From assembly GCA_041568755.1 (NCBI GenBank), contig JBFFZF010000002.1, positions 1 to 63,787 on the forward strand: 63,787 bases of DNA, in the 5' to 3' direction. The notes under the pieces were generated by a model. That model worked only from the letters and a program-made list of their open reading frames with translations. It did not search any database and was not told the origin of the DNA. A program made the translations under genes and the position numbers. This document shows, one piece after another, positions 278-45,882 of the stretch; the first letter of the stretch is position 1, and each line of letters opens with the position of its first letter. Source of the stretch: Longimicrobiales bacterium (GTDB lineage: Bacteria; Gemmatimonadota; Gemmatimonadetes; Longimicrobiales; RSA9).

Positions 278-331
278 CAATCGAGTCGCGTGGCGCCCGC
301 CCGCGGGCGTCCGCATGACCGCAATTCCGTG

Positions 332-359
332 ACCGCCCGGCCCGACGTGGCCGGGCGGT
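332..359 (+). terminator. Terminator-like hairpin (11-bp perfect GC stem, 6-nt loop)
   Basis: accgcccggcc / cgacgt / ggccgggcggt. It lies 55 nt after the TAG at 275-277. The downstream T-tract is weak. Confidence 0.45.
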
Positions 360-390
360 TCATCGGCCTTCCGCCCTGAAGGAGCCAGCC

Positions 391-12680: not shown

Positions 12681-13579
12681 GATCCGACCTGGATCTCAGC
12701 GAGAAGCGTGCGGACGCCGTCGCCGCGCATCTGCACGACATCCTCCTGATACTTGAGCAGCACGCCGAGCGTGCGATCGATGTGCTCGGCCTGCACGTCC
12801 TGCGCCCCCAGCGCATCGAGGGCGGCGGCCCAGTCGAGCGTCTCCGCGACGCCGGGTACCTTGGACAGGTCGGCCGCACGCAGCCGCTGGACGAAGGCCA
12901 CTGCCTGCGCGGCCAGCTGCTCGCCGATGGCGGGCAGCCGGGTGCGCAGGATCGCCAGTTCGCGGCTGGCGGATGGGTAGTCGATCCAGTGATAGAAGCA
13001 GCGACGCTTGAGCGCGTCATGAACTTCACGGGTGCGGTTGCTGGTGAGGATGACGCGCGGGTTGCGTACGGCGCGGATCGTGCCGATCTCCGGGATCGTG
13101 ATCGCATAATCCGCGAGCAGCTCGAGCAGAAACGCTTCGAATTCCTCGTCGGCCCGGTCGATCTCGTCGATGAGCAGTACGGGCGCGACGTCACCGTGGG
13201 CCTCGATCGCCCGCAGCAGCGGACGCTGGATCAGGAACTCGCGGCTGAAGATGTCGCGGGCGCGGGCGGAGCGGGCCTCATCGCGCGCTTCGAGCAGCCG
13301 GATCTCGAGCATCTGCCGGGCGTAGTCCCACTCGTAGAGCGCGGTCGAGGCGTCGATGCCCTCGTAGCATTGCAGGCGGACCAGCTCGGCACCGGTGACC
13401 TGCGCGAGAGCGCGGCCCACCTCGGTCTTGCCGACGCCGGCCTCGCCCTCGAGAAACAGCGGCCGTTCGAGCGCGAGTGCGAGGTAGAGCGCGGTCGCCA
13501 GATCGTCGTCCGCGAGGTAGCCGACCTGCCGGAACGCTCCGGCCACCGCCGCCGGGCTGTCCAGCGTGCGACCCGGCAT
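12677..13579 (-). CDS. coxD: MoxR-type AAA+ ATPase, CoxD-like
   Basis: Walker A GEAGVGKTEV and Walker B LLIDEIDRADEE. Confidence 0.85.
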   Translation of the reverse strand: MPGRTLDSPAAVAGAFRQVGYLADDDLATALYLALALERPLFLEGEAGVGKTEVGRALAQVTGAELVRLQCYEGIDASTALYEWDYARQMLEIRLLEARDEARSARARDIFSREFLIQRPLLRAIEAHGDVAPVLLIDEIDRADEEFEAFLLELLADYAITIPEIGTIRAVRNPRVILTSNRTREVHDALKRRCFYHWIDYPSASRELAILRTRLPAIGEQLAAQAVAFVQRLRAADLSKVPGVAETLDWAAALDALGAQDVQAEHIDRTLGVLLKYQEDVVQMRGDGVRTLLAEIQVGS

Positions 13580-13599
13580 CGTGATGCGGGTACCCTCGC

Positions 13600-14454
13600 T
13601 CAGCCGGCGCGCGCGTAAGCGGCCGCGAGCGCGCGCCGGGCCACCACGCCCGCGAGGTGCGCCCGGTACTCCGACGACGCGTGGATGTCGCCGTTCACGG
13701 CACGACCGGCCGTGAGCTCCGCCGTGGCCGCCTGCAGCGCCGCGTCGTCGGCGTGGGTCCCGACGATCTTCGACACATCAGCCAGAAAAGCGTGGTCCGA
13801 GACACCCGTCAGGGCGACGACGGCCGTCTTGACTGTCTTGCGGCTGCGTGTCACGACGGCGGCAGCGCCGGCCAGCGCGTAGCCGGAGGCCTGCTGCTCG
13901 ACCGCGACATATGCCGACCCGGCCCGCCGAGGCAGCGACGGTAACACGATGTGCGTCAGCAGCTCATCTTCGCGCTTCGCGGTCGTGAAAGCGCCCTGGA
14001 AAAAATCGGTTGCGGCCACCGTCCGCTTGCGGCCTTTCGCGCGCAGCGTGAAGGACGCGCCCAGCGCGAGCATGACCGCCGGCAGGTCCGACGCGGGGTC
14101 GGCATGCGCGAGCCCGCCGCCGACGGTCGCCAGATTGCGCACCTGCAGGTCGGCGATGCGACGCACGGTCTCGGTCAGGATCGGGAACCGCTCCCCGAGC
14201 TCGGCGTGGTCGAGGACTTCGCGATACGTCACGGCCGCACCGATCGAAGTCTTGCGCGGCCGGACGTCGATGTGACGGAGCGCCTCGAGCCCGCTGATGT
14301 CGAGCAGCTTCCCGGGTCGAGCCAGCCGGAAGCGGAGGATCGGGATGAGGCTGTGGCCGCCAGCCAGAATCGTCGTTTCGCCATCCTTCGCGAGCGCATT
14401 GACCGCGGCCCGGACCGAAGTGGCCCGTTCGTAATCGAATGCGTGCGGAATCAT
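13600..14454 (-). CDS. coxM: FAD-binding medium subunit of a molybdo-hydroxylase (CoxM-like)
   Basis: MIPHAFDYERATSVRAAVNAL...ILAGGHSLIPILRFR. Its ATG overlaps the coxL stop (ATGA). The track ORF start at 14571 is an over-extension. Confidence 0.85.
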   Translation of the reverse strand: MIPHAFDYERATSVRAAVNALAKDGETTILAGGHSLIPILRFRLARPGKLLDISGLEALRHIDVRPRKTSIGAAVTYREVLDHAELGERFPILTETVRRIADLQVRNLATVGGGLAHADPASDLPAVMLALGASFTLRAKGRKRTVAATDFFQGAFTTAKREDELLTHIVLPSLPRRAGSAYVAVEQQASGYALAGAAAVVTRSRKTVKTAVVALTGVSDHAFLADVSKIVGTHADDAALQAATAELTAGRAVNGDIHASSEYRAHLAGVVARRALAAAYARAG

Positions 14455-16802: not shown

Positions 16803-16811
16803 GATCGTCTC

Positions 16812-33677: not shown

Positions 33678-34706
33678 TCAGGTCGGCGGTGCTGCGCGGC
33701 GTGCGGCGAGCTCGTCGCGTCGCCCGGCGGGGAGCCGGCTCAGCACGGCTTCGCGCAGGCCCGGCGTCACGAAGCGGTAGACGGACGTGATGTCACCGTC
33801 CTCCAGGTCGCGCAATCCGATGGATTTCACGATGCCCTGCCGGACCGCGACGGCCAGCAGGTCCTCCGTCTCCAGCTCGTCACGGCCCGTGACGCGCGCG
33901 AGTTCGTTGCCTTCGAATTCCTCGCCGATCACGGCGGCCGCCTCGACCATCGATGCCGCGCCCGGCGCGAGCCCCTCGAGCGCCGAAAGAACCTCGGATG
34001 TACGCGGCGCGACGGCGTGCACGATGCAGCGTTCGGGCGGCAGCGCACCCGCGCCCGCGTGGATCGGGGCGAGCGGATCGCCCTGCCGCGACCGCCGCAC
34101 CGACCCGACCACGAGCAGACGCGCGCCGACGGGCGCGTCCCGGATGAGTCGGCACAGCGCACCGGCACCTGCCCGGTCGGCCTCGTGCAGGTCACGTGCG
34201 ATGATGGCGACCGGCCGGCGCTGCGCGGAGCGCAGGATCTGGCGGACAGCCGGCGGCCGCTCGGGGCCGCTGCTCCTGTTGCGCACGCGACCCACCGTCA
34301 TGATGACGGCGGCCAGGAGATTCCCCAGGCCGGGGATCGCGCCGATCCATTCCGGCAGCACACGCTCGCCGGCCTCTCCGATGCGCACGTTGTACAGCCG
34401 GTCGGACCAGTTGCGGCCGAGATGTTCGGCGGCCAGGGCGACGGGATCATAGGCCGCCTCGGCACCGGGGCCGAGGTCGATGAGTTCGACGTGCGGGTCC
34501 GCGGGGCGTGACACGACCTGAACAGCGCTGGCGGCGTCGGCCGGATCGATCGCCTCGAGGAGGAGCAGCGTGGGCAGGCCGCTGGCCGCGCGGGACAGGG
34601 CGCGCTTGAATGCGGCGGACTCGGCCTCGAGCCCGTCCGGGTCCGGCCAGTCGGGAAGCTCGACGTCGTCGAACGGAGGCGGCGGAACGGTCGCGCGGCG
34701 TTCCAT
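33678..34706 (-). CDS. Truncated, Walker-A-less paralogue of the upstream STAND/AAA ATPase
   Basis: It aligns by eye with the NTPase module of the 34716-37367 product: PEWIGAIPGLGNLLAAV vs PYWLGVVPLVGGLLAAT, IIARDLHEAD vs LFLDDLHWAD, and YRFVTPGLREAVLSRL vs YRFRHPLVRTVLYRQV. At the Walker A position it has EAIDPADAAS. Confidence 0.7.
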   Translation of the reverse strand: MERRATVPPPPFDDVELPDWPDPDGLEAESAAFKRALSRAASGLPTLLLLEAIDPADAASAVQVVSRPADPHVELIDLGPGAEAAYDPVALAAEHLGRNWSDRLYNVRIGEAGERVLPEWIGAIPGLGNLLAAVIMTVGRVRNRSSGPERPPAVRQILRSAQRRPVAIIARDLHEADRAGAGALCRLIRDAPVGARLLVVGSVRRSRQGDPLAPIHAGAGALPPERCIVHAVAPRTSEVLSALEGLAPGAASMVEAAAVIGEEFEGNELARVTGRDELETEDLLAVAVRQGIVKSIGLRDLEDGDITSVYRFVTPGLREAVLSRLPAGRRDELAARRAAPPT

Positions 34707-34715
34707 GACCTCGGG

Positions 34716-37367
34716 CTACGCAGCCAGCGCGCTGCGCAGCGAGGCGAGGCGGGCGTGCAGCGGAGGCGACTGGATCCGTTCGATGGCGTCGGCGGCGCTC
34801 GCGACGATCCCTGCTGCCCGTGTCTCATCCACGCGTCGCGCGAGTTCCGCGCGCTCGATGACGGTGCGCGCCCACAGGTAGACATCGCGCGGCTGCACGG
34901 CGGCGGCGGCGCGCTCGAGCCGCGCGTCCGCCGCACCGACATCGCCGGCGGCAAACTCCCTGCGCGCCAGGAACAGCTCGGCCAGATCGCGGTCCTCGAA
35001 CCACGCACCGCTCTTCTCGAGGAGTGCGAGCAGGGCCGCCGCCTGCTCCGCGGCGTCGGTGTCACGTTCGAGCGCGAGCATACAGAGGCCCAGGCCGCTG
35101 CGCGCGACGGCCTCGGACTGCCACAGTTCGAGGTGGCGGGCGTGTTCGAGCAGGTCCTCGTACCGTTCCGCGGCGGCCGCGTGCTCGTCCTGCAGCCGGG
35201 CGCATTCGGCCAGACCGAAGAGCGACTGCACGATGCTCGCACGGTCGCGCTTCTCGTGGATCGCGCGTGCGCGCAGCAACATGTGTTCGGCGTCGGCGAA
35301 CATACCGACCCGCAGCATGACCATGCCCAGGTTGTGACAGGCCGCGGCGATGCCGTTCGGATCGCCCATCCGCTCGAAGCCGGTGAGCACGTGCCCGAAA
35401 TCGTCGAGCGCGTCGCGGTACCTGCCCATCTTCGCGTTGGCCACACCGGCGATGGCGTGGTACCGGGCCAGCAGAACGGGGTCCTGGATGCTGAACGCGA
35501 CTTCGAGCGCGCGGCGCAGCGGTTCGAACGCGGCCTCGACGCGGCCTTCGATGAAGACGTACCGCACGGCGAGCCGCTCGAGCGCGTCGACCAGCAGCAG
35601 TGGTTCGTCGAGCGACTCCGCTATGCGCACCGCCTCGATGGAGAAGGCCGCATCGTTGCTCGCATCGGGCAGCCGGGTCAGCTCGATCAGGATGTGACAG
35701 CGCTCGACCAGGTCGTCCTGCGCGCGATCCAGCAGTTCGGTCAGCTGTCCGACCAGGACGGGGGCCGGCGCGAGGCCGGCCTTGCGCTGCACGGTCACGC
35801 TCTTGCGCTCGAGTCGTGCGGTCGTCGCGCCGTCCGTTTTGCCGGTTGCAGCCCTGTACTCTTCGACGGCGCGCGCGTACTGGCCCACGCGATCGTGGAG
35901 GTCACCGCACCGTTCGCGCACGTGCGCTTCGCCGTCGGGGTCCGTGTTGCGCAGCGCGATGTCGAACAGATCGAGCGCTTCCCAGTTCGCGAAGATCGCG
36001 GCAGCGGCGTCGGCAGCGGTGAGCGCGTAGCGACAGGCCCGATCGCGCACGCGGCCGTGATCGAAGTGACGCGCGAGCTGCGGCGCAACGCGGTCGACAT
36101 GGTCGGCCCACAGCGATTCGATTGTCTCACCCGCCTTGCGGTGCACCAGGATGCGCCGCTTGCCCACGACCTGACGGTACAGCACCGTACGGACCAGCGG
36201 GTGGCGGAACCGGTATTCCGACGCGGAGTCGCCGTTCGGCAGATCGATCTCGCCCGTCGCCTCGATCAGCCCGTGCTTTCGTTCGAGCGGCTCGAGGAGA
36301 TCGAGCACATCGAGTTCGTCCTTGTCGAGCAGGCGGGCGAGCAGCACCGAATCGAACTGCGCGCCGCCGATGCTGGCGTACTGCAGCAGGTTCAGCTCGT
36401 CGGGTCCGAGGCGCTGGATGCGCCGTTCGATCACGGCCTCCGCAGAGCGCGGCACGTCGGTCGACTCGGCCGCGTCGGTGAGGTGCCATTCGCCGTCGAT
36501 CTCGACCGCGCCGCCGTTCTGACGGAGCAGTTTGGCCAGCTCCGTCACGAACAGCGGATTACCGCCGGCCGTGCGTTCCACCCAGCGGCGCAGAGGCACG
36601 GTGACCTCGCCACCCAGTTCGTGGGCCAGCACGACATCGAGCGACGCGCTGTCCATCTCGGTGAGCCGGACCCGCGTCGCGACATCTTCGCGTTCGAGCT
36701 CGAGGACCAGCTCGATCAGGGCGGGGTCGTCGTGCTCGACCTGCAGTCCGCGCATCGTCGAGATGATGACGACCGGCAGCTCACCGATGCCGCGGCTCAG
36801 GTAGCCGAGCAGTCCGACGGAGGCGTTGTCGGCCCAGTGCAGGTCATCGAGGAAGAGCAGGAGAGGCGCATCCGCGGCCAGCTGCCGCACGACGTCGAGG
36901 TACTGCATGAACAGCGCTTCGCGCGAGGGCGCTGCGGAACGCTTCATGTGGTCCTGCACCTCCGCGGCCGTCGCGAAGGTCGCGGCCAGGAGCCCGCCGA
37001 CGAGCGGTACGACACCCAGCCAGTACGGGGCCAGTTCCTTGACGAGGCCGGAGACCGTGGCGCGCTGGACCGAGCCCGGCGTGGACTCGTCGGCCAGGTC
37101 GCTGAGGGCTTCGATGAACGGGAGGTAGGGCTCGCCGCCGCCGAACGACTGGGTGCACCGGCCGCGGCCGATGGCGTGGCGGCCGTCGCTCGACAGGCGG
37201 GCCAGCAGCTCCATGACCAGCGTGGTCTTGCCCACGCCGGCGGGGCCCTCGACGAATACGGCCCGGCCGCGGGACTGACCCACGGCCGCGGCGATGACCG
37301 CCTCCAGCCTGTCCAGCTCAGCCTGTCTGCCGACGAACGACATCGTACCGTCCGGCCGCCTGCGCAT
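34716..37367 (-). CDS. STAND-type P-loop NTPase (COG3899-like) with a C-terminal TPR array
   Basis: FVGRQAELDRL..., Walker A GPAGVGKTTL, Walker B LLLFLDDLHWAD, then about 450 aa of TPR-like helical repeats. Start at M74 (37367) or M82 (37343) of the track ORF. Confidence 0.8.
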   Translation of the reverse strand: MRRRPDGTMSFVGRQAELDRLEAVIAAAVGQSRGRAVFVEGPAGVGKTTLVMELLARLSSDGRHAIGRGRCTQSFGGGEPYLPFIEALSDLADESTPGSVQRATVSGLVKELAPYWLGVVPLVGGLLAATFATAAEVQDHMKRSAAPSREALFMQYLDVVRQLAADAPLLLFLDDLHWADNASVGLLGYLSRGIGELPVVIISTMRGLQVEHDDPALIELVLELEREDVATRVRLTEMDSASLDVVLAHELGGEVTVPLRRWVERTAGGNPLFVTELAKLLRQNGGAVEIDGEWHLTDAAESTDVPRSAEAVIERRIQRLGPDELNLLQYASIGGAQFDSVLLARLLDKDELDVLDLLEPLERKHGLIEATGEIDLPNGDSASEYRFRHPLVRTVLYRQVVGKRRILVHRKAGETIESLWADHVDRVAPQLARHFDHGRVRDRACRYALTAADAAAAIFANWEALDLFDIALRNTDPDGEAHVRERCGDLHDRVGQYARAVEEYRAATGKTDGATTARLERKSVTVQRKAGLAPAPVLVGQLTELLDRAQDDLVERCHILIELTRLPDASNDAAFSIEAVRIAESLDEPLLLVDALERLAVRYVFIEGRVEAAFEPLRRALEVAFSIQDPVLLARYHAIAGVANAKMGRYRDALDDFGHVLTGFERMGDPNGIAAACHNLGMVMLRVGMFADAEHMLLRARAIHEKRDRASIVQSLFGLAECARLQDEHAAAAERYEDLLEHARHLELWQSEAVARSGLGLCMLALERDTDAAEQAAALLALLEKSGAWFEDRDLAELFLARREFAAGDVGAADARLERAAAAVQPRDVYLWARTVIERAELARRVDETRAAGIVASAADAIERIQSPPLHARLASLRSALAA

Positions 37368-37636
37368 CAGTGTGGCGGGCGCGATCCCCGCCGGTGAACC
37401 CGCGGAACCGCCCGGAAACGCGGCGGCCGTGGGGAACCCCCGAAAATCGTTGCGTCGACGCACATCTTGCAATGTCCCGCCACTTTGTGACATCCTGGTA
37501 CCCACATTTCTCCACATCCCGGCAGGCCCGTGCCGCTGTTGGCACTGCGCCCAGACGCAGGAAGCGTTCATCCCACTCGAGGACACCGGGACGGGAGCCA
37601 GACCGTATCACTCGCACCCGTCGAACCGAGGTAACG

Positions 37637-39138: not shown

Positions 39139-41727
39139 TCAGGCCGCAGCGGCATTGAGCCGAACGAGGGCCACGATCTCGACGGTCCGATCGGCAGCGG
39201 GGTTCCCGAATTCGGCCCGATCGAGCTCCGCCTCGAGCCGGGAGAGCAGCACCGCGAGGCGGGCAGGACCGCTGCCGTCGCCGGTCGCGGACGCATCCTG
39301 AAGCAGGATCTCGTCGAGCCGGCGGGCGAGACCGGACCGGGTGCCGTATCGGAGCCGCCCGAGAAGCGCATCGACGCGCAGACAGAGGGCCGGGTCGGGG
39401 CCGCCCGGCAAACGGCTCAGCGAGCGGGTCAGCCCGCGCGCGATGCCGCGCTCCGTCCGCCCGGCCCCGCGAGACTCCGGTCGGGTGTCGGCCGTCAGGA
39501 AGCGGATCGCCGCAGCGTACGCGCGGCGCGCAGCCGCGACGTCCGGGCCAGCGCCAGGAGCCGGCGTCGAGGACGCATCGAGGAGCGCACGCAGCACCGC
39601 GTCGCGATCACGAAGGACCCGTCCGCCCTCATCCACGACCAGCCAGGATACCGCCGCGCCCGAGAGCGCGATTACGCCCCACGGACCCGCGCCCATGGCT
39701 GAGACAGGGACGTGAACGGCGGCGCGATCGGCACCCGGTTCCTCGCCCCCGACCCCGGCTGCGCCCCTGACCAGACCCCAGGCCGCGCGGTCGATGGCGG
39801 TGTGCAGCCCCTCGTCGAGCGGATCCGTGACGGTGGCCGCCTCCTCCAGGTCGGCGAACACGGATCCGTCACCGGCCGCGATCCGGCCGACGACCTCGCG
39901 GAAGGCGACGCGGCGCCCCGCGCCGGACGCCGTGCGCGCCGAGGCGCCGCCCAGGCCGCGCCGGGCCGCGGCGAGCTTGCGCCGGATCCGGGAGACGAGC
40001 CCGAGCACAGCGTCCAGGTCACGGTCCGGAATGAAGTTGCAGGAACGTACCACGCGATGGGGTGAGCCCAGGCGGTCGATGCGCCCCAGCCGCTGGATCA
40101 GCCGTACGGGGTTCCAGGGCAGGTCGTAGCTGATCACGGCCGCCGCGTCCTGCAGGTTGAGTCCTTCCGACAGCACGTCCGTCGCGATGAGCGTATCGAT
40201 CGCCTGGCCCGGCGCGGGCTCGGGCGCTTCATTGGCGACAGGCGCGAACCGTTCGACGACCAGGCGGCGCGGTACCGGGCCCGAGGCGATGCGCGCCTCG
40301 TCACCGTGGATCAGCCCGACGCGGCCCGCCGGCGCGAGCTCCCGGAAAAGGTGGGCGGCCGTCTCACGGAACTCCGAGAAGATGATCACGCGGCCGTCGC
40401 CCCAGTCCCCGGCCAGCAGTGCCCGCAGCGCTGCGATCTTCGGATCTCCTTCCCGGACCGCCTGTTCCGCGAGCTCCGCGACGGCCTGGAGCCGGTCCAG
40501 ATCGGCCGCGACGCCAGCGTCGAGCGCGCCCACGGACAACCCGCGAGGGAGCGGATCCAGCACCAGCTCGAAAAGCGTGAGCTGGCCGGCGTGGAACCGC
40601 CCTGCCCCGCGAAAGTCGGTGGGCCGCAGGAGCAGCCCTCCCGCGAGCGCCGTCCGGAACGCGTGGAGGTAATCCGTGAGCCTGGCGATGCTCGCGGCGA
40701 AGGCCACGAGCCCGGACTCGAGGCGTTTGAGCAGGACGAAGCGCACGAGCTCGATGCGTTCCGTTGCACGGGACCTGATGTTACGGCTTCGGTTACGGGC
40801 GAGGCGGGAGAGGCCGAAGGGCTGGAGGTGGAGGGCGCCAAGATGGTCGAGCATGGCCGGGGCGCCGCGCAGCGACCAGCGCACCGCGAGCGGTGGGGCC
40901 CGGTCCGGAAACCTGGGCCCATCCTCGGCGTACGCCGCCCGGATTTCGCGGCGGCTGCGCCGGACCAGCACCGCGCAAACGGCCCGCACGAACGCAGGCG
41001 GCGCGGCCGCGTCCGGCGGGGCGGTTGCAGCCGACTCGAACGTCTCACGGAGCGACGGCACGCCGAGGTCGGTCAGGCCGCCATCAGGGAGGAAGAGCCG
41101 GATCAGGAAATACAGGTCCTGCAATCGGTTGTTGATCGGTGTCGCGGTCAGCAGCAGCACGCGGCCGGTCCGGCACAGGGCGGCCAGCCCGGCGTATCGG
41201 CGCGTCCGCGCGTTCCGGAACGTGTGCGCCTCATCGACGATGACGAGGTCCGGCGCGCCGATCCAGGCCGGCCACCGCCCCAGTCCGATCATCGAGTGGG
41301 ACAGGACCAGCATCCCGGCAGGACCGGAAGACATTGCTGGACCGGCGGTTCCGCCGCGAGACCGGATCGGCAGTCCGCGGGCCGCGGCCACGGGCGCGAG
41401 GCGCCGGGTCCAGAGGCCGCAGATCGGGGCCGGGGCCGCGACCAGGACGGTGCGCGCGCCGGCGCGGATGCTCTCATCGATCAGTCCCAGTGCGACATAG
41501 GTCTTTCCAATGCCGGCCGGATCCGCGACCAGGACGCCGCCCCGGTGCTGGAGGATTCGCCAGCTGCGCCGGACGGCGTCGGCTTGAAAGCGGGTGAGGT
41601 CGACCGGCGGATCCGGGCGCGGCGGCGGGTCGAGCGCGGCCAGGCGGCCGAAGACGTGGCGTGCGGCCTCCGCGGGTGACGCCGGCAGGAACCGGCCCGG
41701 CCGTGCGACGGGGCGAGCCGCGGTCAC
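39139..41727 (-). CDS. SNF2/RAD54-family helicase (SF2 translocase) with a ~280-aa C-terminal extension of unknown function
   Basis: Motif I DPAGIGKT, motif II VIVDEAHTFRN, motif III LLLTATPINN, and the helicase-C region SEGLNLQDAAAVISYDLPWNPVRLIQRLGRIDRLGS. GTG start. Confidence 0.88.
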   Translation of the reverse strand: MTAARPVARPGRFLPASPAEAARHVFGRLAALDPPPRPDPPVDLTRFQADAVRRSWRILQHRGGVLVADPAGIGKTYVALGLIDESIRAGARTVLVAAPAPICGLWTRRLAPVAAARGLPIRSRGGTAGPAMSSGPAGMLVLSHSMIGLGRWPAWIGAPDLVIVDEAHTFRNARTRRYAGLAALCRTGRVLLLTATPINNRLQDLYFLIRLFLPDGGLTDLGVPSLRETFESAATAPPDAAAPPAFVRAVCAVLVRRSRREIRAAYAEDGPRFPDRAPPLAVRWSLRGAPAMLDHLGALHLQPFGLSRLARNRSRNIRSRATERIELVRFVLLKRLESGLVAFAASIARLTDYLHAFRTALAGGLLLRPTDFRGAGRFHAGQLTLFELVLDPLPRGLSVGALDAGVAADLDRLQAVAELAEQAVREGDPKIAALRALLAGDWGDGRVIIFSEFRETAAHLFRELAPAGRVGLIHGDEARIASGPVPRRLVVERFAPVANEAPEPAPGQAIDTLIATDVLSEGLNLQDAAAVISYDLPWNPVRLIQRLGRIDRLGSPHRVVRSCNFIPDRDLDAVLGLVSRIRRKLAAARRGLGGASARTASGAGRRVAFREVVGRIAAGDGSVFADLEEAATVTDPLDEGLHTAIDRAAWGLVRGAAGVGGEEPGADRAAVHVPVSAMGAGPWGVIALSGAAVSWLVVDEGGRVLRDRDAVLRALLDASSTPAPGAGPDVAAARRAYAAAIRFLTADTRPESRGAGRTERGIARGLTRSLSRLPGGPDPALCLRVDALLGRLRYGTRSGLARRLDEILLQDASATGDGSGPARLAVLLSRLEAELDRAEFGNPAADRTVEIVALVRLNAAAA

Positions 41728-41755
41728 GCTGGACCGGGCGACTCGGGGACCGGCC

Positions 41756-42352
41756 TCATCCGGGGCCGAGGGCGGTGGCGATGACGTCGAGCACGTCCCA
41801 CGCCTGGAGCCAGAGTTCGTCGAAGCGCCGGCCGGCGGATGCGACCGCGGCCGGGGCCGTGATGAGGGAGGTCAGACGGGGCCCGGCCCGGCCGGTGTCG
41901 CCATCCAGCCCGAGCCAGCCGACGAGACAGGCGGCGCCATGAGCGGGCTGACCTGCCGAGCCGGCGAAGACCGCGAAATCCGGGACCCACCGGGTGGTGC
42001 CGGCGGACCTTATCTCGAGGCGTCCTTCGGCGATGAGGCGGCGCAGGGCGTCGAGCGCTGCGCCGCGTTCGGCGTGGGTCCGGCCGGCGGCGGCGGCGTC
42101 GGCCAGCGCATCGACATCCAGCACGCCGAGCAGAACGCGGCAGCGTGTGACGCGCAGTTCGTCAGGCCGGAAATCCAGGGCCGCGAGCCGGACCCGGCGC
42201 ACCGCGAAATCGGCGGTCGCCGAGCGGGCGAGCAGGTGACCCAGCAGATCCCGGACGCGCGGTCTCCGCTCCTGATCGAGAAGCACGCCCCGGTTGGCGG
42301 TGCGCAGGTGGAAGGGGATCCCACCGTCGCCGGTCGCCTCGCGGATGCTCAT
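41756..42352 (-). CDS. Hypothetical 198-aa protein; very tentatively a degenerate (HKD-less) PLD-like fold
   Basis: Its ATG overlaps the methyltransferase stop (ATGA). The protein contains no lysine, so no HxK motif is possible. The segment ...LEIRSAGTTRWVPDFAVFAGSAG weakly recalls the region around the GSxN of PLD nucleases. Confidence 0.5.
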   Translation of the reverse strand: MSIREATGDGGIPFHLRTANRGVLLDQERRPRVRDLLGHLLARSATADFAVRRVRLAALDFRPDELRVTRCRVLLGVLDVDALADAAAAGRTHAERGAALDALRRLIAEGRLEIRSAGTTRWVPDFAVFAGSAGQPAHGAACLVGWLGLDGDTGRAGPRLTSLITAPAAVASAGRRFDELWLQAWDVLDVIATALGPG

Positions 42353-45300
42353 CCCAGCCAGCCCGCGAAGCTCTGAAGTGTGCGAACGGCACGTGCATCG
42401 AGTCCGTACGCCCGCGCGACGATCGAGTCCATCTCTTGTTGCGCAACCGGCGCAGCCGCTCCCGCGGTGTGGGCAGCTTCCGAGAGCGAAGCCAGGCGAT
42501 CCGTCCAGGCTGCCGTCCGCCAGTCGGCAGGCAGCGGCAGCGCGCCGATCGTCCAGGCGAAGAAACGGAAGCGCGCGTCCTTGGCGCGCTCCGCGATGGC
42601 GCGCGCGAAGGTGCGCACGGGCAGCGCATTGAAGAAGGCGGCGAGCAGCAGGGCGTCCCTGCGGTTCCGTACAGGCACGAAGTAGACCGAGTTGAGCGGC
42701 ACGATGGGGAGCCAGCCGAACGGCGTCCGCGTTACCGCGGGTACGGCGACGGCATTGAGCGTCGCGGCCAGGTCGTGCCAGACGACCTTGTGGCCCAGCG
42801 CATCAGGCGTGACGCGGAACAGCCTGCCCGGCGGGTCACTCGAGCGGAGACCGGAACGGCGGTCGAGGCGATCCGCGTGCCGCTGCAGGTACGCGCGCAG
42901 CCGCCGGGGCGGCTGGTGGGCGAGTGCGCCGTCCCCGTGGGTCCAGACGACCCAGAGTTCGCGCGTCCAGGCCCACGGTCCGACGTCGCTGCCGCGCAGG
43001 AGCGGCCGGATGGCCGTCGCCTCGACCAGCGCTTCGTATCGATCGCGCTCGGCCGTCCTCGCCCCGTTGCTCGGGTCTTCGCCCCGCGAGCGATCGTGCG
43101 AGCGATGCCTGTCGCCGCGCGCTGACCAGCCGGTGGCGCGCACGGTGGCGAGGTCGCCGAGCCGGGCCGTCACGCGCTCGAGCACGAGCACGTCGTTGGC
43201 GCCGGTGAAGATGCCGCGCCGGACGCGCAGGCCGGTGTGCAGGCCGAGCAGCGGACCCGCCGCCTGCATCGTGCGGAACACGCGCGTGACACGGCGCGGT
43301 GCGATGAGCCAGGGCGATTCGATGTCGTCGGGGAAGAGCGGCAGCTCGTTCTGCGGGATCCTGAAGGCGCGGGGACGCCGGCCGCGTCGGATCATGCACA
43401 CGCGGACGCGCGTGGCCGGGGCACCGCGCGTCGCGACGATCGCAGCTGCGAACGCGTCGGCGCGGAAGATCGACCGCTGGTCCAGGCTGTGATCTTCGAC
43501 GGACGAGATCGCGGTGTCACGCAGAAGCATGCGGCGCGCCGAGCCGCCGTAAAGCGAGCGGAGGATCTTGGCGGGCATCAGCATGCCGAGTGTGCCATGA
43601 GGCGCGAGCAGCGCGAGCACGCGTTCGAGGAAGAGCAGCGACAGATCGATCTGTGCGGCTGCCGCGCGCGGTGCGCCGGCGAGCCGCGTGCCGGCACGCC
43701 AGCCCGGGCTGCGGCAGACCGCGTATCGCGAGCGGACCGCGCTGGCGAGCGCGGCGGGCCAGCGGTGTGCGCGAATCCACGGCGGGTTGGAAACGACGAG
43801 GTCGAAGCCGTGCAGGGCGGCGTCGGCGAAGTGGACGCCGAAGCTGAAGAAGGGCAGTGCGCGGCCGTCCTCCAGCGCGCGCCGGATCCTGGCCGTGTCG
43901 GCGGTCCGCGTTTCGATCCGACCGATCGCGCTCGCCGCCGCGCGTGCCGCCGTCGACGGCTGCTGCCAGAGGTCCCGCTCGGCGGCGCGCGCCCGCGCTT
44001 CGGCGAGCTGGCCGGCAAGGCGGTGTTCGATCGCATCGATCCACGCGGCGGCGAGTCGGGCCTCACCGTCTGCGAGATCCTTCAGCAGATGGGACCGCTC
44101 GTCGGGGTCGGCCGCGATGTACCGGGTCGACGCGGGTGTGAGCGCCCGCACTGCCGCTCGCACGCGCGCATCGATGGCGGCGCCCCGATCGACGACATGC
44201 GCGCGCGTGCCAGGCATGGCGAGATCGAGCGGGTCGAGCAGGGCGTCACCCTGACGGATGCGGCGGTCCAGGTTGGGCAGCGGATCGACGACCCGGCCGG
44301 CCGCGGGGACGGAGAGCGCCAGCCAGAGTCGCAGCGCGCAGAGCAGGGCCGCATCACCCTGGATGTCGACGCCGTAGATGCCGCGCGTGACGATGTCGCG
44401 GCGGAGCGCGTCCCCGTCGTGCCGTACATCGAGCGTTGCCCGCAGCGCCGCGATGCGCGACAGCGCGCCCAGCAGAAACGCACCGGACCCGCAGGCCGGG
44501 TCGAGCACACGGAGCCCCGCCGCGGCGCGCGCGAGCCGTTGCCTCGCCCGCGCATCCGCCACGTCCCGGGACCGGGTGCGCATCAGCCGATCGAGCATCG
44601 CGTCCGTGAGACCGGTACGGGCGGCGAGGTGCGCGCTCAGCGCGCGCGGCACGAGGCGATCGACGACGGCCGGCGGTGTGAAGAACGTGCCCGTATCACC
44701 GCGCCGATCCTCCGCCATCATGCCTTCGAAGACACGACCCAGCATCTCGGGATCGATGCCGGCGGCGAACGCGCCATCCACGATGTCGTCGGCATGATCG
44801 CGCGCCGTGAACCGATAGCGCTCGAGCAACTCCTCGAAGAGTGCGGCGCTCACCTCGTCGGCCAGGTCCAGTCCGTCGAAACGCTGCTCCAGCCGCGTCC
44901 GCTCGAACAGGCCGCCGTTCAGGTAAGGCAACGGCCCGAGTGCCCGGGCGGCGGCCGTGCGCCGCTCAGGCCGCGTGTTCAGTGCGCCGAAGAAGAGCGG
45001 GACCAGGACGTCGCGATGAAACGTCGTGCCGATGCGCGGCTGACGTTGCCAGCGCCGCAGCAGCCCGGGCAGGAACGCCGGATCGCCGGCCAGGTGACCC
45101 TGACGCTGCAGGAAATACAGGAACATCAATCGGCACAGGTGCAGCAGGGCCAGCTGTTCGCGCTCCGCGCGCAGCCGCCGAGGGATGCTGGTCCACCCGG
45201 TCGCGACGCGGGTGCGGTGTGCCCGGAACTCGAGGAAGAAGCGGCGGCCGACCCGCGCGCGGTCGAGGGCACGCGCGTATCGGATCGCCAGCGCGACGCC

Positions 45301-45762
45301 TCCCTCGCCGGGACGCGCGACCATCTCGGCGAGCGTCTCGAGGTCCGTCGGGCGCGGCTGTTGCCGCTGGAGCACCAGGTCGCGCAGCACGCCGTCGAGA
45401 CCGGATGCGGTCAGGCCGACCGTCCGGTAGCGGGCATCGGCGAAAAGCACGAGGTGCTGCGCGGTCGCGTCGCGGCCGGCGATGCTGCGCGCCCATGCGG
45501 CCGTCGCGCGGGCCGACACCTGGCCGTCGAGCTGTACGAGCGTGAGGCGCATGCCGGCCCGCTCGGCGATCGACCAGGCCCGGCCGTCCGCGCGGCCCTC
45601 GGCCGGGCCCGGGCCGTCGGGCCGGGGGTCCAGGGACGCGAAGCCGAGCGCGGCCGCGAGGGACGCGGCACGGGCCGGTCGATCGAAGCCCGCGAGGGCC
45701 CGTTCCAGTTCAGCGGTCGAGGTCGCCACGCGCGACAAGAAGCGCGCGCTGGCGGGGCACAT
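42349..45762 (-). CDS. Large gamma-class N6-adenine DNA methyltransferase, Eco57I/MmeI/PglX-like
   Basis: YLNGGLFE, TGTFFTPPAVVDRLV, motif I RVLDPACGSGAFLLGAL and motif IV DLVVSNPPWIR. A ~450-aa region after motif IV is the presumed TRD. The N-terminal ~170 aa are unassigned. Confidence 0.85.
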   Translation of the reverse strand: MCPASARFLSRVATSTAELERALAGFDRPARAASLAAALGFASLDPRPDGPGPAEGRADGRAWSIAERAGMRLTLVQLDGQVSARATAAWARSIAGRDATAQHLVLFADARYRTVGLTASGLDGVLRDLVLQRQQPRPTDLETLAEMVARPGEGGVALAIRYARALDRARVGRRFFLEFRAHRTRVATGWTSIPRRLRAEREQLALLHLCRLMFLYFLQRQGHLAGDPAFLPGLLRRWQRQPRIGTTFHRDVLVPLFFGALNTRPERRTAAARALGPLPYLNGGLFERTRLEQRFDGLDLADEVSAALFEELLERYRFTARDHADDIVDGAFAAGIDPEMLGRVFEGMMAEDRRGDTGTFFTPPAVVDRLVPRALSAHLAARTGLTDAMLDRLMRTRSRDVADARARQRLARAAAGLRVLDPACGSGAFLLGALSRIAALRATLDVRHDGDALRRDIVTRGIYGVDIQGDAALLCALRLWLALSVPAAGRVVDPLPNLDRRIRQGDALLDPLDLAMPGTRAHVVDRGAAIDARVRAAVRALTPASTRYIAADPDERSHLLKDLADGEARLAAAWIDAIEHRLAGQLAEARARAAERDLWQQPSTAARAAASAIGRIETRTADTARIRRALEDGRALPFFSFGVHFADAALHGFDLVVSNPPWIRAHRWPAALASAVRSRYAVCRSPGWRAGTRLAGAPRAAAAQIDLSLLFLERVLALLAPHGTLGMLMPAKILRSLYGGSARRMLLRDTAISSVEDHSLDQRSIFRADAFAAAIVATRGAPATRVRVCMIRRGRRPRAFRIPQNELPLFPDDIESPWLIAPRRVTRVFRTMQAAGPLLGLHTGLRVRRGIFTGANDVLVLERVTARLGDLATVRATGWSARGDRHRSHDRSRGEDPSNGARTAERDRYEALVEATAIRPLLRGSDVGPWAWTRELWVVWTHGDGALAHQPPRRLRAYLQRHADRLDRRSGLRSSDPPGRLFRVTPDALGHKVVWHDLAATLNAVAVPAVTRTPFGWLPIVPLNSVYFVPVRNRRDALLLAAFFNALPVRTFARAIAERAKDARFRFFAWTIGALPLPADWRTAAWTDRLASLSEAAHTAGAAAPVAQQEMDSIVARAYGLDARAVRTLQSFAGWLG

Positions 45763-45882
45763 CCATGGACGGATGGGAAGACTTGCGGAAGCGCGAGGCC
45801 CCTCCAGGCCGTAGCCCGGAGGGGCCCCTCCGTTCTTCGTGAAAGGCCCGGCGTTCGACGGGCCAGACCGCTCAGCGCATGC

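What the first reader, a model, noticed from the sequence alone, without database searches (positions are those of the whole stretch)
39139..45762. Methyltransferase / lysine-free small protein / SNF2 helicase cassette that fits no described defence family
Seen in sequence: three co-directional minus-strand genes. The first is a 1137-aa gamma-class N6-adenine methyltransferase (MTase) with Eco57I/MmeI/PglX-type motifs (YLNGGLFE, TFFTPP, DPACGSGAFL, NPPW). Its stop overlaps (ATGA) the start of a 198-aa ORF. After a 28-nt gap comes an 862-aa SNF2 helicase carrying all SF2 motifs and a ~280-aa unassigned tail. Established knowledge: a large adenine MTase plus an SNF2 helicase (plus a PLD protein) occur in class 1 DISARM (DrmMI, DrmD, DrmC). 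PglX-type MTases define BREX. Helicase-MTase fusions define type ISP restriction-modification (R-M) systems. The obligatory partners of those systems are absent from the flanks: DrmA/DrmB (DUF1998), PglZ/BrxC, or an Mrr/PD-(D/E)xK nuclease. The flanks instead hold a terminator-bounded lipoprotein gene and an S8 protease. Inference: this could be a minimal methylation-dependent self/non-self module in which an ATP-driven translocase, rather than a classical nuclease, is the effector. Alternatively a nuclease may be hidden in the unassigned MTase N-terminus (aa 1-170), the helicase tail or the small ORF.
Basis: partly seen in the sequence, partly recalled or inferred. Interest (0 to 1): 0.8.

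Follow-up and report, generated by a model that had tools for sequence, protein, structure and literature searches.

The report
Methyltransferase–SNF2 module without nuclease residues
The three genes are real and form a conserved unit in Gemmatimonadota bacteria (an adenine DNA methyltransferase, a catalytically degenerate PLD-fold protein that is really the helicase's detached front end, and an SNF2 motor), making a derived, apparently nuclease-less, vertically inherited version of a known restriction-like module.

Summary
In detail: coordinates, motifs, the ATGA overlap and the 28-nt gap are all as described. The small ORF is not an orphan. AlphaFold2 plus Foldseek place it in the phospholipase D (PLD) nuclease fold (R.NgoAVII, SauUSI). 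In about 7% of relatives it is fused to the N-terminus of the SNF2 protein. In one lineage it is absent.

The cassette is therefore a split form of a known two-part architecture: a large Eco57I/MmeI-type m6A methyltransferase plus a PLD–SNF2 helicase. HKD-intact relatives sit on Deinococcus and cyanobacterial plasmids. MANTIS MtsD and SauUSI are the characterised analogues of the effector.

Three things differ here:
- The PLD catalytic His/Lys are replaced family-wide by an invariant W-x-P-D-F motif.
- No conserved nuclease constellation exists in the methyltransferase N-terminus or the SNF2 tail.
- DUF499, DrmA/B and PglZ partners are absent from the window and from all related loci.

The methyltransferase and ATPase motifs are invariant. 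The specificity region is not hypervariable. The module sits at a fixed chromosomal site next to proline dehydrogenase across a large Gemmatimonadota clade.

It is most likely a disarmed, methylation-coupled translocase. Whether it still defends or has been domesticated is open. It is a new variant of a known kind, of moderate interest.

The parts
42349..45762 (-). 1137-aa Eco57I/MmeI-type gamma-class N6-adenine DNA methyltransferase (type IIG-like layout: N-terminal domain, helical spacer, methyltransferase core, C-terminal specificity region)
   Evidence: Pfam Eco57I 4e-15, N6_Mtase and MmeI_Mtase. PADLOC REase_MTase_IIG models cover aa 159-1116. It is 28% identical over aa 119-865 to the methyltransferase of Deinococcus radiophilus plasmid pRadio5. 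The nearest solved relatives by profile are M.BseCI, BrxX/PglX, CamA and MmeI, over the core only.
44473..44502 (-). Methyltransferase motif I (AdoMet binding), DPACGSGAFL
   Evidence: Coordinates verified. Invariant or nearly so in 112 family members.
43777..43788 (-). Methyltransferase motif IV (catalytic), NPPW
   Evidence: Coordinates verified. N659, P660, P661 and W662 are invariant.
45313..45762 (-). Methyltransferase N-terminal domain (aa 1-150): a confidently folded alpha/beta domain with no conserved nuclease triad. The window copy has Gln at two positions (77 and 132) that are acidic in most relatives.
   Evidence: AlphaFold2 pLDDT 87.7. No significant Foldseek match in PDB or BFVD. 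Only G40 is at least 95% conserved within aa 1-165. E77 is acidic in 74% and position 132 in 93% of relatives, while the window has Q/Q.
42352..43365 (-). Methyltransferase C-terminal region (aa 800-1137), the position of the target-recognition domain. It is conserved, not hypervariable.
   Evidence: Top-residue frequency is 0.57-0.83, similar to the catalytic core, except for a variable loop at aa 881-920. PADLOC type IIG model PDLC03630 aligns to aa 645-1116.
41756..42352 (-). 198-aa PLD-superfamily-fold protein lacking the HKD catalytic residues; the detached N-terminal domain of the SNF2 helicase
   Evidence: AlphaFold2 pLDDT 85.5, pTM 0.82. Foldseek: R.NgoAVII 4e-6, SauUSI 7e-6, FAM83, TrmBL2, Zucchini, Nuc. 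Fused to SNF2 in L017 and in about 10 of 147 representatives. No Pfam, PADLOC or NCBIfam hit.
41975..41989 (-). Family signature W-V-P-D-F (aa 122-126) in the region where PLD enzymes carry HxK
   Evidence: W in 194/195, P 193, D 190, F 191; no conserved His or Lys at the site. hhalign against true HKD domains places the catalytic His opposite V128 and the Lys opposite variable position 130, with G145 on the G of the GSxN motif.
39139..41727 (-). 862-aa SNF2-family ATPase/translocase (core aa 44-595) with a poorly conserved C-terminal tail
   Evidence: Pfam SNF2-rel_dom and Helicase_C. The best solved relative by profile is RapA at 6e-25, over the core only. About 30% identical over aa 42-578 to plasmid PLDc_2-SNF2 proteins.
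41500..41514 (-). SNF2 Walker A motif, GIGKT
   Evidence: Coordinates verified. G72, G74, K75 and T76 are invariant.
41224..41235 (-). SNF2 Walker B motif, DEAH
   Evidence: Coordinates verified. D165, E166 and H168 are invariant.
39142..39930 (-). SNF2 C-terminal tail (aa 600-862): low conservation, Ala/Gly/Arg-rich, no catalytic signature
   Evidence: Top-residue frequency 0.36-0.53 and only R784 and L792 invariant. tblastn rarely aligns it between loci. No solved-structure match beyond the helicase core.
45763..45882 (-). 120-nt intergenic region upstream of the methyltransferase, holding a GC-rich palindromic hairpin (45817-45832). It probably contains the S8 gene's terminator and the cassette's promoter.
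   Evidence: Sequence read directly. The terminator-like scan flags 45817-45832. No sigma-70 consensus was found.

Best explanation
The cassette is a Gemmatimonadota-specific descendant of a known ATP-dependent restriction-like module made of a large Eco57I/MmeI-type m6A DNA methyltransferase and a PLD(HKD)-SNF2 helicase-nuclease.

Shown by the analysis:
- The PLD domain has been split off as its own gene. It is still fused in some relatives and lost in one.
- Family-wide, the catalytic His/Lys of the PLD domain are replaced by an invariant W-x-P-D-F motif.
- No other conserved nuclease site exists in the three proteins.
- The methyltransferase AdoMet-binding and catalytic motifs and all SNF2 ATPase motifs are invariant.
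- The methyltransferase stop/start overlap with the next gene is conserved, which implies co-translation.
- The module occupies a fixed chromosomal site across a large clade.

Inferred mechanism:
- The methyltransferase marks one fixed sequence motif on the chromosome with m6A.
- The pseudo-PLD domain keeps the structural role its fold has in MtsD and SauUSI, namely dimerisation and forming a DNA channel on top of the motor.
- The SNF2 motor translocates on DNA in a way gated by methylation state.
- The output is non-nucleolytic: ATP-driven interference with, or remodelling of, unmethylated DNA (BREX-like in outcome) rather than cleavage.

I regard it as a 'disarmed' self/non-self module that has become a stable resident of the lineage.
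For: Identity and architecture. PLD fold of the small protein. Fusion proteins such as L017 (small domain at aa 15-188 at 44% identity, SNF2 at aa 306-866 at 45%), plus about 10 long fusions among 147 representatives. The closest annotated relatives are PLDc_2+SNF2 proteins of 1082-1094 aa lying beside Eco57I-type methyltransferases of 1061-1124 aa on plasmids. Both proteins are homologous to ours. These plasmid helicases match PADLOC 'HKD+Snf2' full length at about 200 bits.

Loss of nuclease chemistry. W122 in 194/195, P124 in 193, and no conserved His/Lys. Register from hhalign. Only G40 conserved in methyltransferase aa 1-165 and no Lys there in 69/112 sequences. No fold match for the N-terminus. 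Only two invariant residues in the SNF2 tail. One lineage lacks the PLD-like gene altogether.

Retained activities. Motifs I and IV invariant. GxGKT, DExH, TPxNN and QRxGRxDR invariant.

Coupling. The 4-nt stop/start overlap is conserved in 8 of 9 gene-called loci.

No partners..

Structural role of PLD dimers in motor nucleases. MtsD and SauUSI (bioRxiv 10.64898/2026.09.23.753747, read).

Precedent for a dispensable PLD component. DrmC is not required for DISARM protection (bioRxiv 10.1101/2021.12.28.474362).
Against: No experiment or methylome supports any function.

The absence of a nuclease is inferred from missing canonical residues, so a non-canonical site cannot be excluded. E77 (74%) and E/D132 (93%) are conserved acids in the methyltransferase N-terminal domain of most relatives, though both are Gln in the window. 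A His at position 147 is present in 79% of small proteins, but it is Leu in the window.

The PLD assignment rests on Foldseek TM scores of 0.5-0.6 and a weak hhalign result (E = 0.003, probability 10-18%). No sequence profile detects it.

Fixed synteny, co-divergence with proline dehydrogenase, a non-variable specificity region, and the absence of any plasmid or viral copy fit a housekeeping role at least as well as defence.

All relatives come from metagenome assemblies, so taxonomic labels and completeness are uncertain.
Confidence: 0.5

Rival explanations
1. Domesticated epigenetic or chromosome-maintenance module with no defence role. A former restriction-like system lost its nuclease chemistry, and the lineage now uses it as an m6A 'writer' coupled to an SNF2 remodeller for transcription, replication or repair. 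It would be analogous to orphan methyltransferases such as Dam or CcrM, but with a dedicated motor.
For: The module sits beside proline dehydrogenase and a gyrA-like/FeS-assembly/SpoIIE housekeeping block in 13 loci. That includes 5 of 5 informative loci sampled by proline dehydrogenase homology alone (58-71% identity). Methyltransferase identity tracks proline dehydrogenase identity, r = 0.89. The specificity region is as conserved as the catalytic core. There are no mobile-element hallmarks, tRNAs or flanking repeats. There is no viral or plasmid copy. The nuclease residues are lost. The best solved relative of the motor is RapA, an RNA-polymerase-associated SNF2 protein.
Against: The module is not universal. 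The window lineage and several others carry it in different contexts. The pattern scan found it in only 12 GTDB species, corrected to roughly 50-150. Its nearest relatives outside the phylum sit in defence-type neighbourhoods on plasmids, next to DUF262, SLATT/nucleotidyltransferase and Abi genes. The three proteins evolve faster than the housekeeping neighbour, by about 10-15 identity points. No regulatory target is known.
Confidence: 0.3
2. Conventional ATP-dependent restriction enzyme with a cryptic nuclease. The candidate sites are a non-canonical metal site in the methyltransferase N-terminal alpha/beta domain (E77, E/D132, D140/E142/E146) or a re-invented active site in the PLD-like protein (R55, R72, R115, D125, D186, with His147 in most members). 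The window's own copy may be a recently inactivated version.
For: The N-terminal domain occupies the position of the PD-ExK nuclease domain of type IIG enzymes, since PADLOC type IIG profiles align only from aa ~159 onwards. Its predicted topology includes an alpha-beta-beta-beta-alpha-beta unit. 75 of 112 relatives keep acids at both positions 77 and 132, and D140, E142 and E146 are ~100% acidic. PD-(D/E)xK proteins appear among the non-significant Foldseek hits. The PLD-like protein has about 10 nearly invariant polar residues.
Against: There is no D...(D/E)xK geometry. The hairpin partner positions are not conserved, and Lys is absent from aa 1-165 in most members. Aa 1-120 is the least conserved part of the protein. 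No fold match reaches significance. The window protein has Q77/Q132 and L147. One lineage has dropped the PLD-like gene entirely. The covalent phospho-histidine mechanism of PLD nucleases is impossible without the His.
Confidence: 0.15
3. Fragment of an already named multi-gene system (class 1 DISARM, BREX, or BR type-2/MANTIS/Hma) whose remaining genes lie elsewhere in the genome.
For: DrmD, DrmMI, PglX and HmaA models give partial hits. DISARM class 1 contains an SNF2 protein, an N6-methyltransferase and a PLD protein. The BR type-2 effector is an HKD-SF2 helicase.
Against: All scores are far below the curated cut-offs. No DrmA/DrmB(DUF1998), PglZ/BrxC, DUF499 or DUF3780 gene occurs in the 64-kb window or within +/-10 kb in any of about 25 loci, including contigs of 0.1-5.4 Mb. 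BR methyltransferases are of the DUF1156/PglXI type, not the Eco57I type. Only the trio or duo itself is conserved.
Confidence: 0.03

Closest known systems
Plasmid-borne 'Eco57I/MmeI-type N6 methyltransferase + PLDc_2(HKD)-SNF2 helicase' modules (for example Deinococcus radiophilus pRadio5 and Microcystis aeruginosa NIES-2481 p1). The helicase matches the PADLOC candidate model C3a139 'HKD+Snf2'.
   Same: Both the methyltransferase (28% identity over about 800 aa, E = 5e-68) and the helicase core (about 30% over aa 42-578) are homologous. The gene order is the same (methyltransferase upstream, same strand), and there is an N-terminal PLD-fold domain ahead of the SNF2 core.
   Different: In the plasmid versions the PLD domain is fused and keeps the HxK...GSxN motif. 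They are plasmid-borne, and variable defence-type genes are inserted between the methyltransferase and the helicase. Here the PLD domain is a separate gene with W-x-P-D-F in place of HKD, the genes are tightly coupled, and the module is chromosomal and syntenic. As far as I could find, these plasmid modules are only a bioinformatic candidate and have not been validated as a system.
MANTIS / Gao_RL / BREX-related (BR) type-2 system; effector MtsD
   Same: An N6-adenine methyltransferase works with a PLD + SF2-helicase effector. In MtsD the PLD domains dimerise above the motors to build one active site, which gives a structural role that a dead PLD domain could retain.
   Different: MANTIS requires a DUF499 AAA+ ATPase (MtsA) and a small co-regulator (MtsB, written DUF3780 and DUF3870). 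Its methyltransferase is of the DUF1156/PglXI type, and its PLD has a catalytic His122. None of these is present here.
SauUSI (type IV) and NgoAVII/CglI ATP-dependent restriction enzymes
   Same: They are the top structural matches of the small protein: 4rct R.NgoAVII and 7clg SauUSI. NgoAVII/CglI are three-gene systems of a methyltransferase, a PLD nuclease subunit and a separate SF2 ATPase subunit (abstracts listed), so a split PLD/motor arrangement has precedent.
   Different: Those PLD domains are catalytically active. R.NgoAVII carries a C-terminal DNA-binding domain (abstract) and SauUSI its own target-recognition domain. Their motors are DEAD-type rather than SNF2 (abstracts). From my own knowledge, the CglI/NgoAVII methyltransferase is a C5-cytosine enzyme.
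Class 1 DISARM (DrmD SNF2 helicase, DrmMI N6-methyltransferase, DrmC PLD, plus DrmA/DrmB)
   Same: It contains the same three domain types, and DrmD is the best-scoring named model for the helicase. DrmC is dispensable for protection, which parallels a non-catalytic and losable PLD part here.
   Different: The core DrmA helicase and the DrmB DUF1998 protein are absent everywhere. The DrmD score is 143 bits against a cut-off of 610. DrmMI is defined by pfam13659, not by the Eco57I family.
BREX PglX/BrxX and type IIG/IIL enzymes (MmeI)
   Same: The methyltransferase has the same overall layout and motifs. Profile hits reach BrxX (9ewz, 8c45) and MmeI (5hr4). Like PglX, it lacks nuclease residues.
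   Different: The matches are weak (E about 1e-7) and restricted to the methyltransferase core. There is no PglZ or BrxC. There is no MmeI-type D-X9-E-X-K nuclease motif.
RapA (RNA-polymerase-associated SNF2 ATPase)
   Same: It is the best solved-structure relative of the motor by profile, at E = 6e-25.
   Different: The match covers only the helicase core. No RapA N-terminal or C-terminal domains were detected.

Membership tests
Class 1 DISARM | Core triplet DrmA (helicase), DrmB (DUF1998) and DrmC (PLD) in the locus (definition read) | tested here: not met
   No DUF1998 or DrmA-type gene in the window or in any related locus.
Class 1 DISARM | The SNF2 helicase passes the DrmD equivalog model | tested here: not met
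   NF038317 scores 143.3 bits against a cut-off of 610. NF038318 scores 89 against 950.
Class 1 DISARM | PLD protein with an HKD motif (DrmC, pfam13091) | tested here: not met
   The small protein has a PLD fold but gives no PLDc_2 hit even at E = 10, and HKD is replaced by W-x-P-D-F.
BREX (types 1-6) | PglZ phosphatase and BrxC/PglY ATPase in the locus | tested here: not met
   Absent from the window and from related loci.
BREX (types 1-6) | The methyltransferase passes a PglX model | tested here: not met
   The best is NF033451 at 35.2 bits against a cut-off of 400.
BREX-related (BR)/Hma/MANTIS systems | DUF499 AAA+ ATPase (HmaC/MtsA) in the locus | tested here: not met
   No DUF499 gene. 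The nearby AAA_16-TPR protein at 34716-37586 has no PADLOC hit and is not conserved in other loci.
BREX-related (BR)/Hma/MANTIS systems | Type-2: a standalone small co-regulator gene (DUF3780, DUF3870) and an HKD-active helicase-nuclease | tested here: not met
   The only small gene in the locus is the PLD-fold protein. The catalytic His is absent.
BREX-related (BR)/Hma/MANTIS systems | DUF1156/PglXI-type N6-methyltransferase | tested here: not met
   The methyltransferase is of the Eco57I/MmeI type. PglXI-type models are not among its strong hits.
Type ISP restriction-modification | A single polypeptide combining an Mrr-type nuclease, an SF2 motor, a methyltransferase and a target-recognition domain (my own knowledge of LlaGI/LlaBIII) | tested here: not met
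   The methyltransferase and motor are separate genes. No Mrr or PD-(D/E)xK domain was detected.
Type IIG/IIL restriction-methyltransferase (MmeI-like) | N-terminal PD-ExK nuclease with conserved D...E-x-K | tested here: not met
   Acid at 67, acid at 77 and a basic residue at 79 co-occur in only 12 of 112 sequences. The window has E67, Q77 and D79. Lys is absent from aa 1-165 in 69 of 112.
Type IIG/IIL restriction-methyltransferase (MmeI-like) | Gamma-class methyltransferase core plus helical spacer plus C-terminal specificity domain | tested here: met
   PADLOC REase_MTase_IIG models align to aa 159-1116. Pfam MmeI_Mtase, plus weak MmeI_hel and DUF7814 hits.
PLD(HKD)-SNF2 helicase + large N6-methyltransferase modules (PADLOC candidate 'HKD+Snf2') | An N-terminal PLD-fold domain physically or genetically joined to an SNF2 core, adjacent to an Eco57I-type methyltransferase | tested here: met
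   PLD fold. Fusions exist within the family. Homology to plasmid members for both proteins.
PLD(HKD)-SNF2 helicase + large N6-methyltransferase modules (PADLOC candidate 'HKD+Snf2') | Intact HxK(x)4D...GSxN catalytic motif | tested here: not met
   W-x-P-D-F is invariant and no register places a His or Lys at the site. The PADLOC C3a139 model matches only the helicase part of the window protein, at 97 bits.
Any methylation-based defence system | A methyltransferase-dependent m6A motif on host DNA and protection against phage or plasmids | not testable with these tools
   This needs methylome data and genetics. None was available.

The most novel reading that the evidence does not exclude
A restriction-like system was domesticated early in a Gemmatimonadota lineage into a nuclease-free 'writer plus remodeller' pair. 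A sequence-specific m6A methyltransferase is translationally coupled to an SNF2 motor through a pseudo-nuclease adaptor, inherited vertically at a fixed chromosomal site, and used for the cell's own chromosome biology. That would make it a bacterial counterpart of the eukaryotic coupling between DNA methylation and SNF2 remodellers such as DDM1/LSH.
Probability: 0.25. Interest if true: 0.8.

Novelty: new variant of a known kind. Interest (0 to 1): 0.5.

Why it matters
If the reading is right, this family is a natural experiment in what a methyltransferase-plus-motor restriction module does once its nuclease chemistry is gone. All three proteins remain under strong purifying selection in about 250 sequence clusters. 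The pseudo-PLD keeps an invariant new motif. The module is held at one chromosomal site across orders.

That bears on two open questions. The first is how nuclease-less, methylation-based systems such as BREX, and DISARM without DrmC, stop foreign DNA. The second is how restriction systems become domesticated into epigenetic machinery.

The family also offers natural split, fused and PLD-less variants for dissecting the non-catalytic role of PLD domains in MtsD/SauUSI-type motor nucleases. If the module is simply a quiet restriction system with a cryptic nuclease, the finding is a routine addition to the restriction-modification catalogue.

Tried and rejected
(1) Sequence-profile identification of the small ORF failed everywhere: Pfam, PADLOC and NCBIfam on the window protein, Pfam on all 36 aligned members at E = 10, and a family profile against PDB sequences at E = 10. 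Only structure prediction plus Foldseek identified the fold.

A reduced alignment worked, but its two peptide patterns catch only 8-27% of the family, so its count of 12 species is a lower bound.

(3) Hidden nuclease in methyltransferase aa 1-170. Tested by conservation and by AlphaFold2 plus Foldseek against PDB and BFVD. There was no significant match and no canonical triad, so I rejected it as the main reading but kept it as a rival because of E77 and E/D132.

(4) Hidden nuclease in the SNF2 tail. Rejected on conservation and on the lack of any match to a solved structure.

(5) Mobile-island hypothesis. No tRNAs, only chance-level repeats, no viral contig or plasmid homologue of the small protein, and no Rfam element.

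(6) 'Lysine-free' as a functional clue. Rejected as special to this ORF, because the whole cassette and the whole family are Lys-poor.

(7) The AAA_16-TPR gene pair next to the cassette as a fourth component. Rejected because it has no PADLOC hit and is not conserved in any other locus.

(8) A regex motif count on the representatives was unreliable and was replaced by an HMM-anchored alignment.

Full report
1. OBSERVATION. The three minus-strand ORFs are exactly as described. They are a 1137-aa gene at 42349-45762, a 198-aa gene at 41756-42352 and an 862-aa gene at 39139-41727. The first two overlap as ATGA, and a 28-nt gap precedes the third. The window is about 70% G+C and the cassette about 73%. 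All three ORFs have GC3 near 0.85, as real genes here do. Pfam gives Eco57I/N6_Mtase/MmeI_Mtase for the first protein and SNF2-rel_dom/Helicase_C for the third. The small protein hits nothing in Pfam, PADLOC or NCBIfam. Curated system models all fail. DrmD scores 143 bits against 610, PglX 35 against 400, and the PLD anti-phage helicase model 95 against 1100. The methyltransferase's best PADLOC hits are generic type IIG models covering aa 159-1116.

2. THE SMALL ORF IS A PLD-FOLD DOMAIN THAT BELONGS TO THE HELICASE. It has 46 word-indexed homologues and 251 clusters at 50% identity in an exhaustive profile search. The named ones are all from Gemmatimonadota metagenome-assembled genomes. AlphaFold2 with the family alignment gives a confident model (pLDDT 85.5, pTM 0.82). 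Foldseek places it in the phospholipase D superfamily. The top hits are the PLD nuclease domains of R.NgoAVII (4e-6) and SauUSI (7e-6), followed by the non-catalytic PLD-like domains of FAM83 and TrmBL2, then Zucchini, Nuc, NucT and PLD3, at TM 0.5-0.6. In locus L017, from a 5.4-Mb contig, the methyltransferase is followed by a single 1241-aa protein. Its aa 15-188 match the small protein (44% identity) and its aa 306-866 match the SNF2 protein (45%). About ten of 147 family representatives are such N-terminal fusions of 1000-1300 aa. In L031 the PLD-like gene is missing altogether, and the methyltransferase stop overlaps the SNF2 start as GTGA; an HMM search of the six-frame translation finds nothing. 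The constant core is therefore methyltransferase + SNF2, and the PLD-like part can be split, fused or lost.

3. THE PLD CATALYTIC RESIDUES ARE GONE. In an HMM-anchored alignment of 195 members, W122, P124, D125 and F126 are present in 194, 193, 190 and 191 sequences. R55, R72 and R115 are nearly invariant. No His or Lys is conserved near the motif. A His at position 147 occurs in 79% of members but is Leu in the window protein. I aligned the family profile to genuine HKD domains taken from plasmid relatives (A4). The result is weak but colinear over 148 columns (E = 0.003). G145 falls on the G of the GSxN motif, the catalytic His falls opposite V128, and the Lys falls opposite the variable position 130. 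An alternative register from a single-sequence comparison deletes the HxK loop. No register supplies the phospho-histidine nucleophile.

4. NO OTHER NUCLEASE IS EVIDENT. The methyltransferase family has more than 120 full-length clusters at 46-70% identity. In 112 aligned sequences, motifs I and IV are invariant. The N-terminal 120 aa are the least conserved part, and only G40 reaches 95% conservation within aa 1-165. AlphaFold2 folds aa 1-330 confidently (pLDDT 87.7), with an alpha-beta-beta-beta-alpha-beta unit. Foldseek finds nothing significant in PDB (best E = 0.05) or BFVD (best 7e-3). There is no D...(D/E)xK constellation, and most members have no Lys at all in this region.

One nuance remains. 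E77 (74%) and E/D132 (93%) are conserved acids in the family, and the window protein alone has Gln at both, while its closest relatives (70% and 68% identical) have E/E and E/D. If these residues form a cryptic metal site, the window copy would be a natural double E-to-Q mutant. I could not resolve this.

The SNF2 core motifs (GxGKT, DExH, TPxNN, QRxGRxDR) are invariant. The tail at aa 600-862 is poorly conserved, with two invariant residues, and matches no solved structure. The best relative of the core is RapA at 6e-25.

5. CONTEXT AND INHERITANCE. The trio, in the same order, is present in every related locus that is long enough. The methyltransferase stop/start overlap is conserved in 8 of 9 gene-called loci. 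No fourth gene is universally conserved. The window holds no DUF499, PglZ, DUF1998 or other PADLOC-recognised partner. There are no tRNAs, flanking repeats or Rfam elements, and no viral-contig or plasmid homologue of the small protein.

Instead there is conserved synteny. Proline dehydrogenase lies upstream in 8 loci and a tRNA_bind-domain gene in 8, spanning contigs labelled Longimicrobiales and Gemmatimonadales. Methyltransferase identity tracks proline dehydrogenase identity, with Pearson r = 0.89 over 28 non-independent pairs.

As an independent test, I sampled proline dehydrogenase homologues on long contigs without reference to the trio. All five informative loci at 58-71% identity carry the module next to proline dehydrogenase, opposite a gyrA-like/FeS-assembly/SpoIIE block. 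A 53%-identical homologue does not, and one contig was cut at the critical side.

The window's own lineage has different flanks: an S8 protease upstream, with malic enzyme, amidohydrolase and GGT genes shared with L018, and orf488 shared with L005. It has no proline dehydrogenase gene. The methyltransferase's C-terminal specificity region is as conserved as its catalytic core, unlike the rapidly switching specificity domains of arms-race restriction-modification systems. The GTDB scan found 12 species, but its patterns detect only 8-27% of the family, so roughly 50-150 species is more realistic.

6. WHAT IT DESCENDS FROM. The closest annotated relatives of the SNF2 protein are plasmid proteins of 1082-1094 aa aligning over aa 42-578 at about 30% identity. 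They have a bona fide PLDc_2 domain and PLD active-site motif at the N-terminus. They lie downstream of Eco57I/MmeI-type N6-methyltransferases of 1061-1124 aa in Deinococcus radiophilus pRadio5 and Microcystis p1, with DUF262 or nucleotidyltransferase/SLATT genes in between. The window methyltransferase is 28% identical to the Deinococcus one over about 800 aa (E = 5e-68). These helicases match PADLOC's candidate model 'HKD+Snf2' full length (about 200 bits) but no curated NCBIfam system.

In the literature, the HKD + Swi2/Snf2 effector defines BR type-2 systems (PMC12839542). These are now characterised as MANTIS/Gao_RL, whose MtsD dimer forms one PLD active site (catalytic H122) above two motors and resembles SauUSI (bioRxiv 10.64898/2026.09.23.753747). 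Those systems need a DUF499 ATPase, a small co-regulator and a DUF1156-type methyltransferase, none of which is present here. Class 1 DISARM shares the three domain types but is defined by DrmA, DrmB and DrmC. DrmC is dispensable for protection there (bioRxiv 10.1101/2021.12.28.474362).

7. INTERPRETATION. The following are shown:
- The architecture is methyltransferase + [PLD-like] + SNF2.
- It is homologous to HKD-intact plasmid modules.
- Canonical nuclease residues have been lost.
- The methyltransferase and ATPase motifs are retained.
- The genes are tightly coupled.
- The module is fixed and syntenic in a large Gemmatimonadota clade.

The following are inferred. The methyltransferase writes m6A at one fixed motif. 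The pseudo-PLD keeps a scaffold, dimerisation or DNA-channel role. The SNF2 motor acts on DNA according to methylation state without cutting it.

Whether the outcome is still exclusion of foreign DNA (confidence about 0.5 for a disarmed self/non-self translocase) or a domesticated chromosomal function (about 0.3) cannot be decided computationally. A cryptic nuclease remains possible (about 0.15). Membership of DISARM, BREX or BR with distant partners is unlikely (about 0.03).

8. VERDICT. The cassette does not fit a named system and seems to lack a nuclease. But it is a variant of a described architecture, the small ORF is explained, 'lysine-free' is a compositional trait, and the locus is not a variable island. 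Novelty: a new variant of a known kind. Interest is moderate (0.5), and would be higher if the domestication reading proves true.

Noticed in passing
window 45532-45534 and 45367-45369 (methyltransferase codons 77 and 132): The window methyltransferase has Gln at two N-terminal-domain positions that are acidic in most of the family (E77 in 74%, E/D132 in 93%). It is the only one of 112 sequences with Q/Q, and its nearest relatives have E/E and E/D. This looks like neutralisation of a possible metal site, or it may be drift.
   Followed up: partly
L031:3626-9999 (GCA_007120925.1 contig SKMS01000186.1): A natural variant of the module with only the methyltransferase and SNF2 genes. The stop and start overlap as GTGA, and no PLD-like domain is detectable by HMM on the six-frame translation.
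   Followed up: yes
L017:13531-17256 (5.4-Mb contig, sample ERZ25039483), plus about 10 representatives of 1000-1300 aa: Natural fusions of the PLD-like domain to the N-terminus of the SNF2 protein. This is Rosetta-stone evidence that the two window proteins work together.
   Followed up: yes
L003:6193-6546, and the equivalent genes in L004, L006, L007, L008, L009, L010 and L012: A small tRNA_bind-domain (PF01588) gene lies immediately upstream of the methyltransferase on the same strand in 8 loci. It is not present next to the window cassette. Whether it is functionally linked is unknown.
   Followed up: no
window 39139-45762 compared with its flanks: All three cassette proteins are extremely Lys-poor (0-0.46%) and Arg-rich (12.6-14.3%). 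Neighbouring genes have 0.5-3.3% Lys. Half of the small-protein family has no Lys. The few conserved Lys residues include the SNF2 Walker A K75; the others are SNF2 K334, K430, K584 and methyltransferase K732, K1061. The cassette G+C is about 73%, against 68-70% in the flanks.
   Followed up: partly
window 41912-41914 (small protein codon 147): A 'GAHYF' His is conserved in 79% of the small-protein family at the position of the PLD GSxN motif, but it is Leu in the window protein and its clade (GWLGL).
   Followed up: partly
window 33678-37586 (-): Two adjacent AAA_16-domain genes, the larger (956 aa) with TPR repeats (STAND-like), lie between the cassette and orf488 together with a PepSY_TM gene and a CarboxypepD_reg-domain gene. 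In L005 the orf488 homologue abuts the SNF2 gene directly, so this ~6.6-kb block is an insertion or deletion difference. It has no PADLOC match.
   Followed up: partly
window 319-4005 (+): A 1228-aa protein with an N-terminal caspase domain (Peptidase_C14) and a C-terminal DUF7379 domain.
   Followed up: no
L021:139-9562 (Deinococcus radiophilus pRadio5) and L023:1259-9589 (Microcystis p1): In the HKD-intact plasmid relatives, variable genes are inserted between the methyltransferase and the PLD-SNF2 gene: DUF262 in one, nucleotidyltransferase plus SLATT in the other. The Microcystis locus is followed by MotA/TolQ-like, DUF559, NUDIX, HNH and GIY-YIG genes and an integrase, which is a defence-island-like context.
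   Followed up: no
L022:6305-15478 (Paraburkholderia pOLGA2) and L024:3495-9457 (Acetobacter plasmid): A more distant set of relatives of the helicase sits in a different module: SNF2-type helicase + DUF4391 + site-specific methyltransferase, plus a DEAD/DEAH helicase gene in L022. Pfam detects no PLD domain in the L022 helicase.
   Followed up: no
window 45817-45832: A perfect GC-rich palindrome (CGGAGGGGCCCCTCCG) lies in the 120-nt spacer between the S8 protease gene and the methyltransferase. It is probably a terminator hairpin.
   Followed up: no
window 10924-16811 (-): A molybdopterin dehydrogenase large subunit (Ald_Xan_dh_C, MoCoBD_1 and MoCoBD_2 domains) with CoxE-like VWA and AAA_5 ATPase genes. 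This is a CO/xanthine-dehydrogenase-type cluster unrelated to the finding.
   Followed up: no
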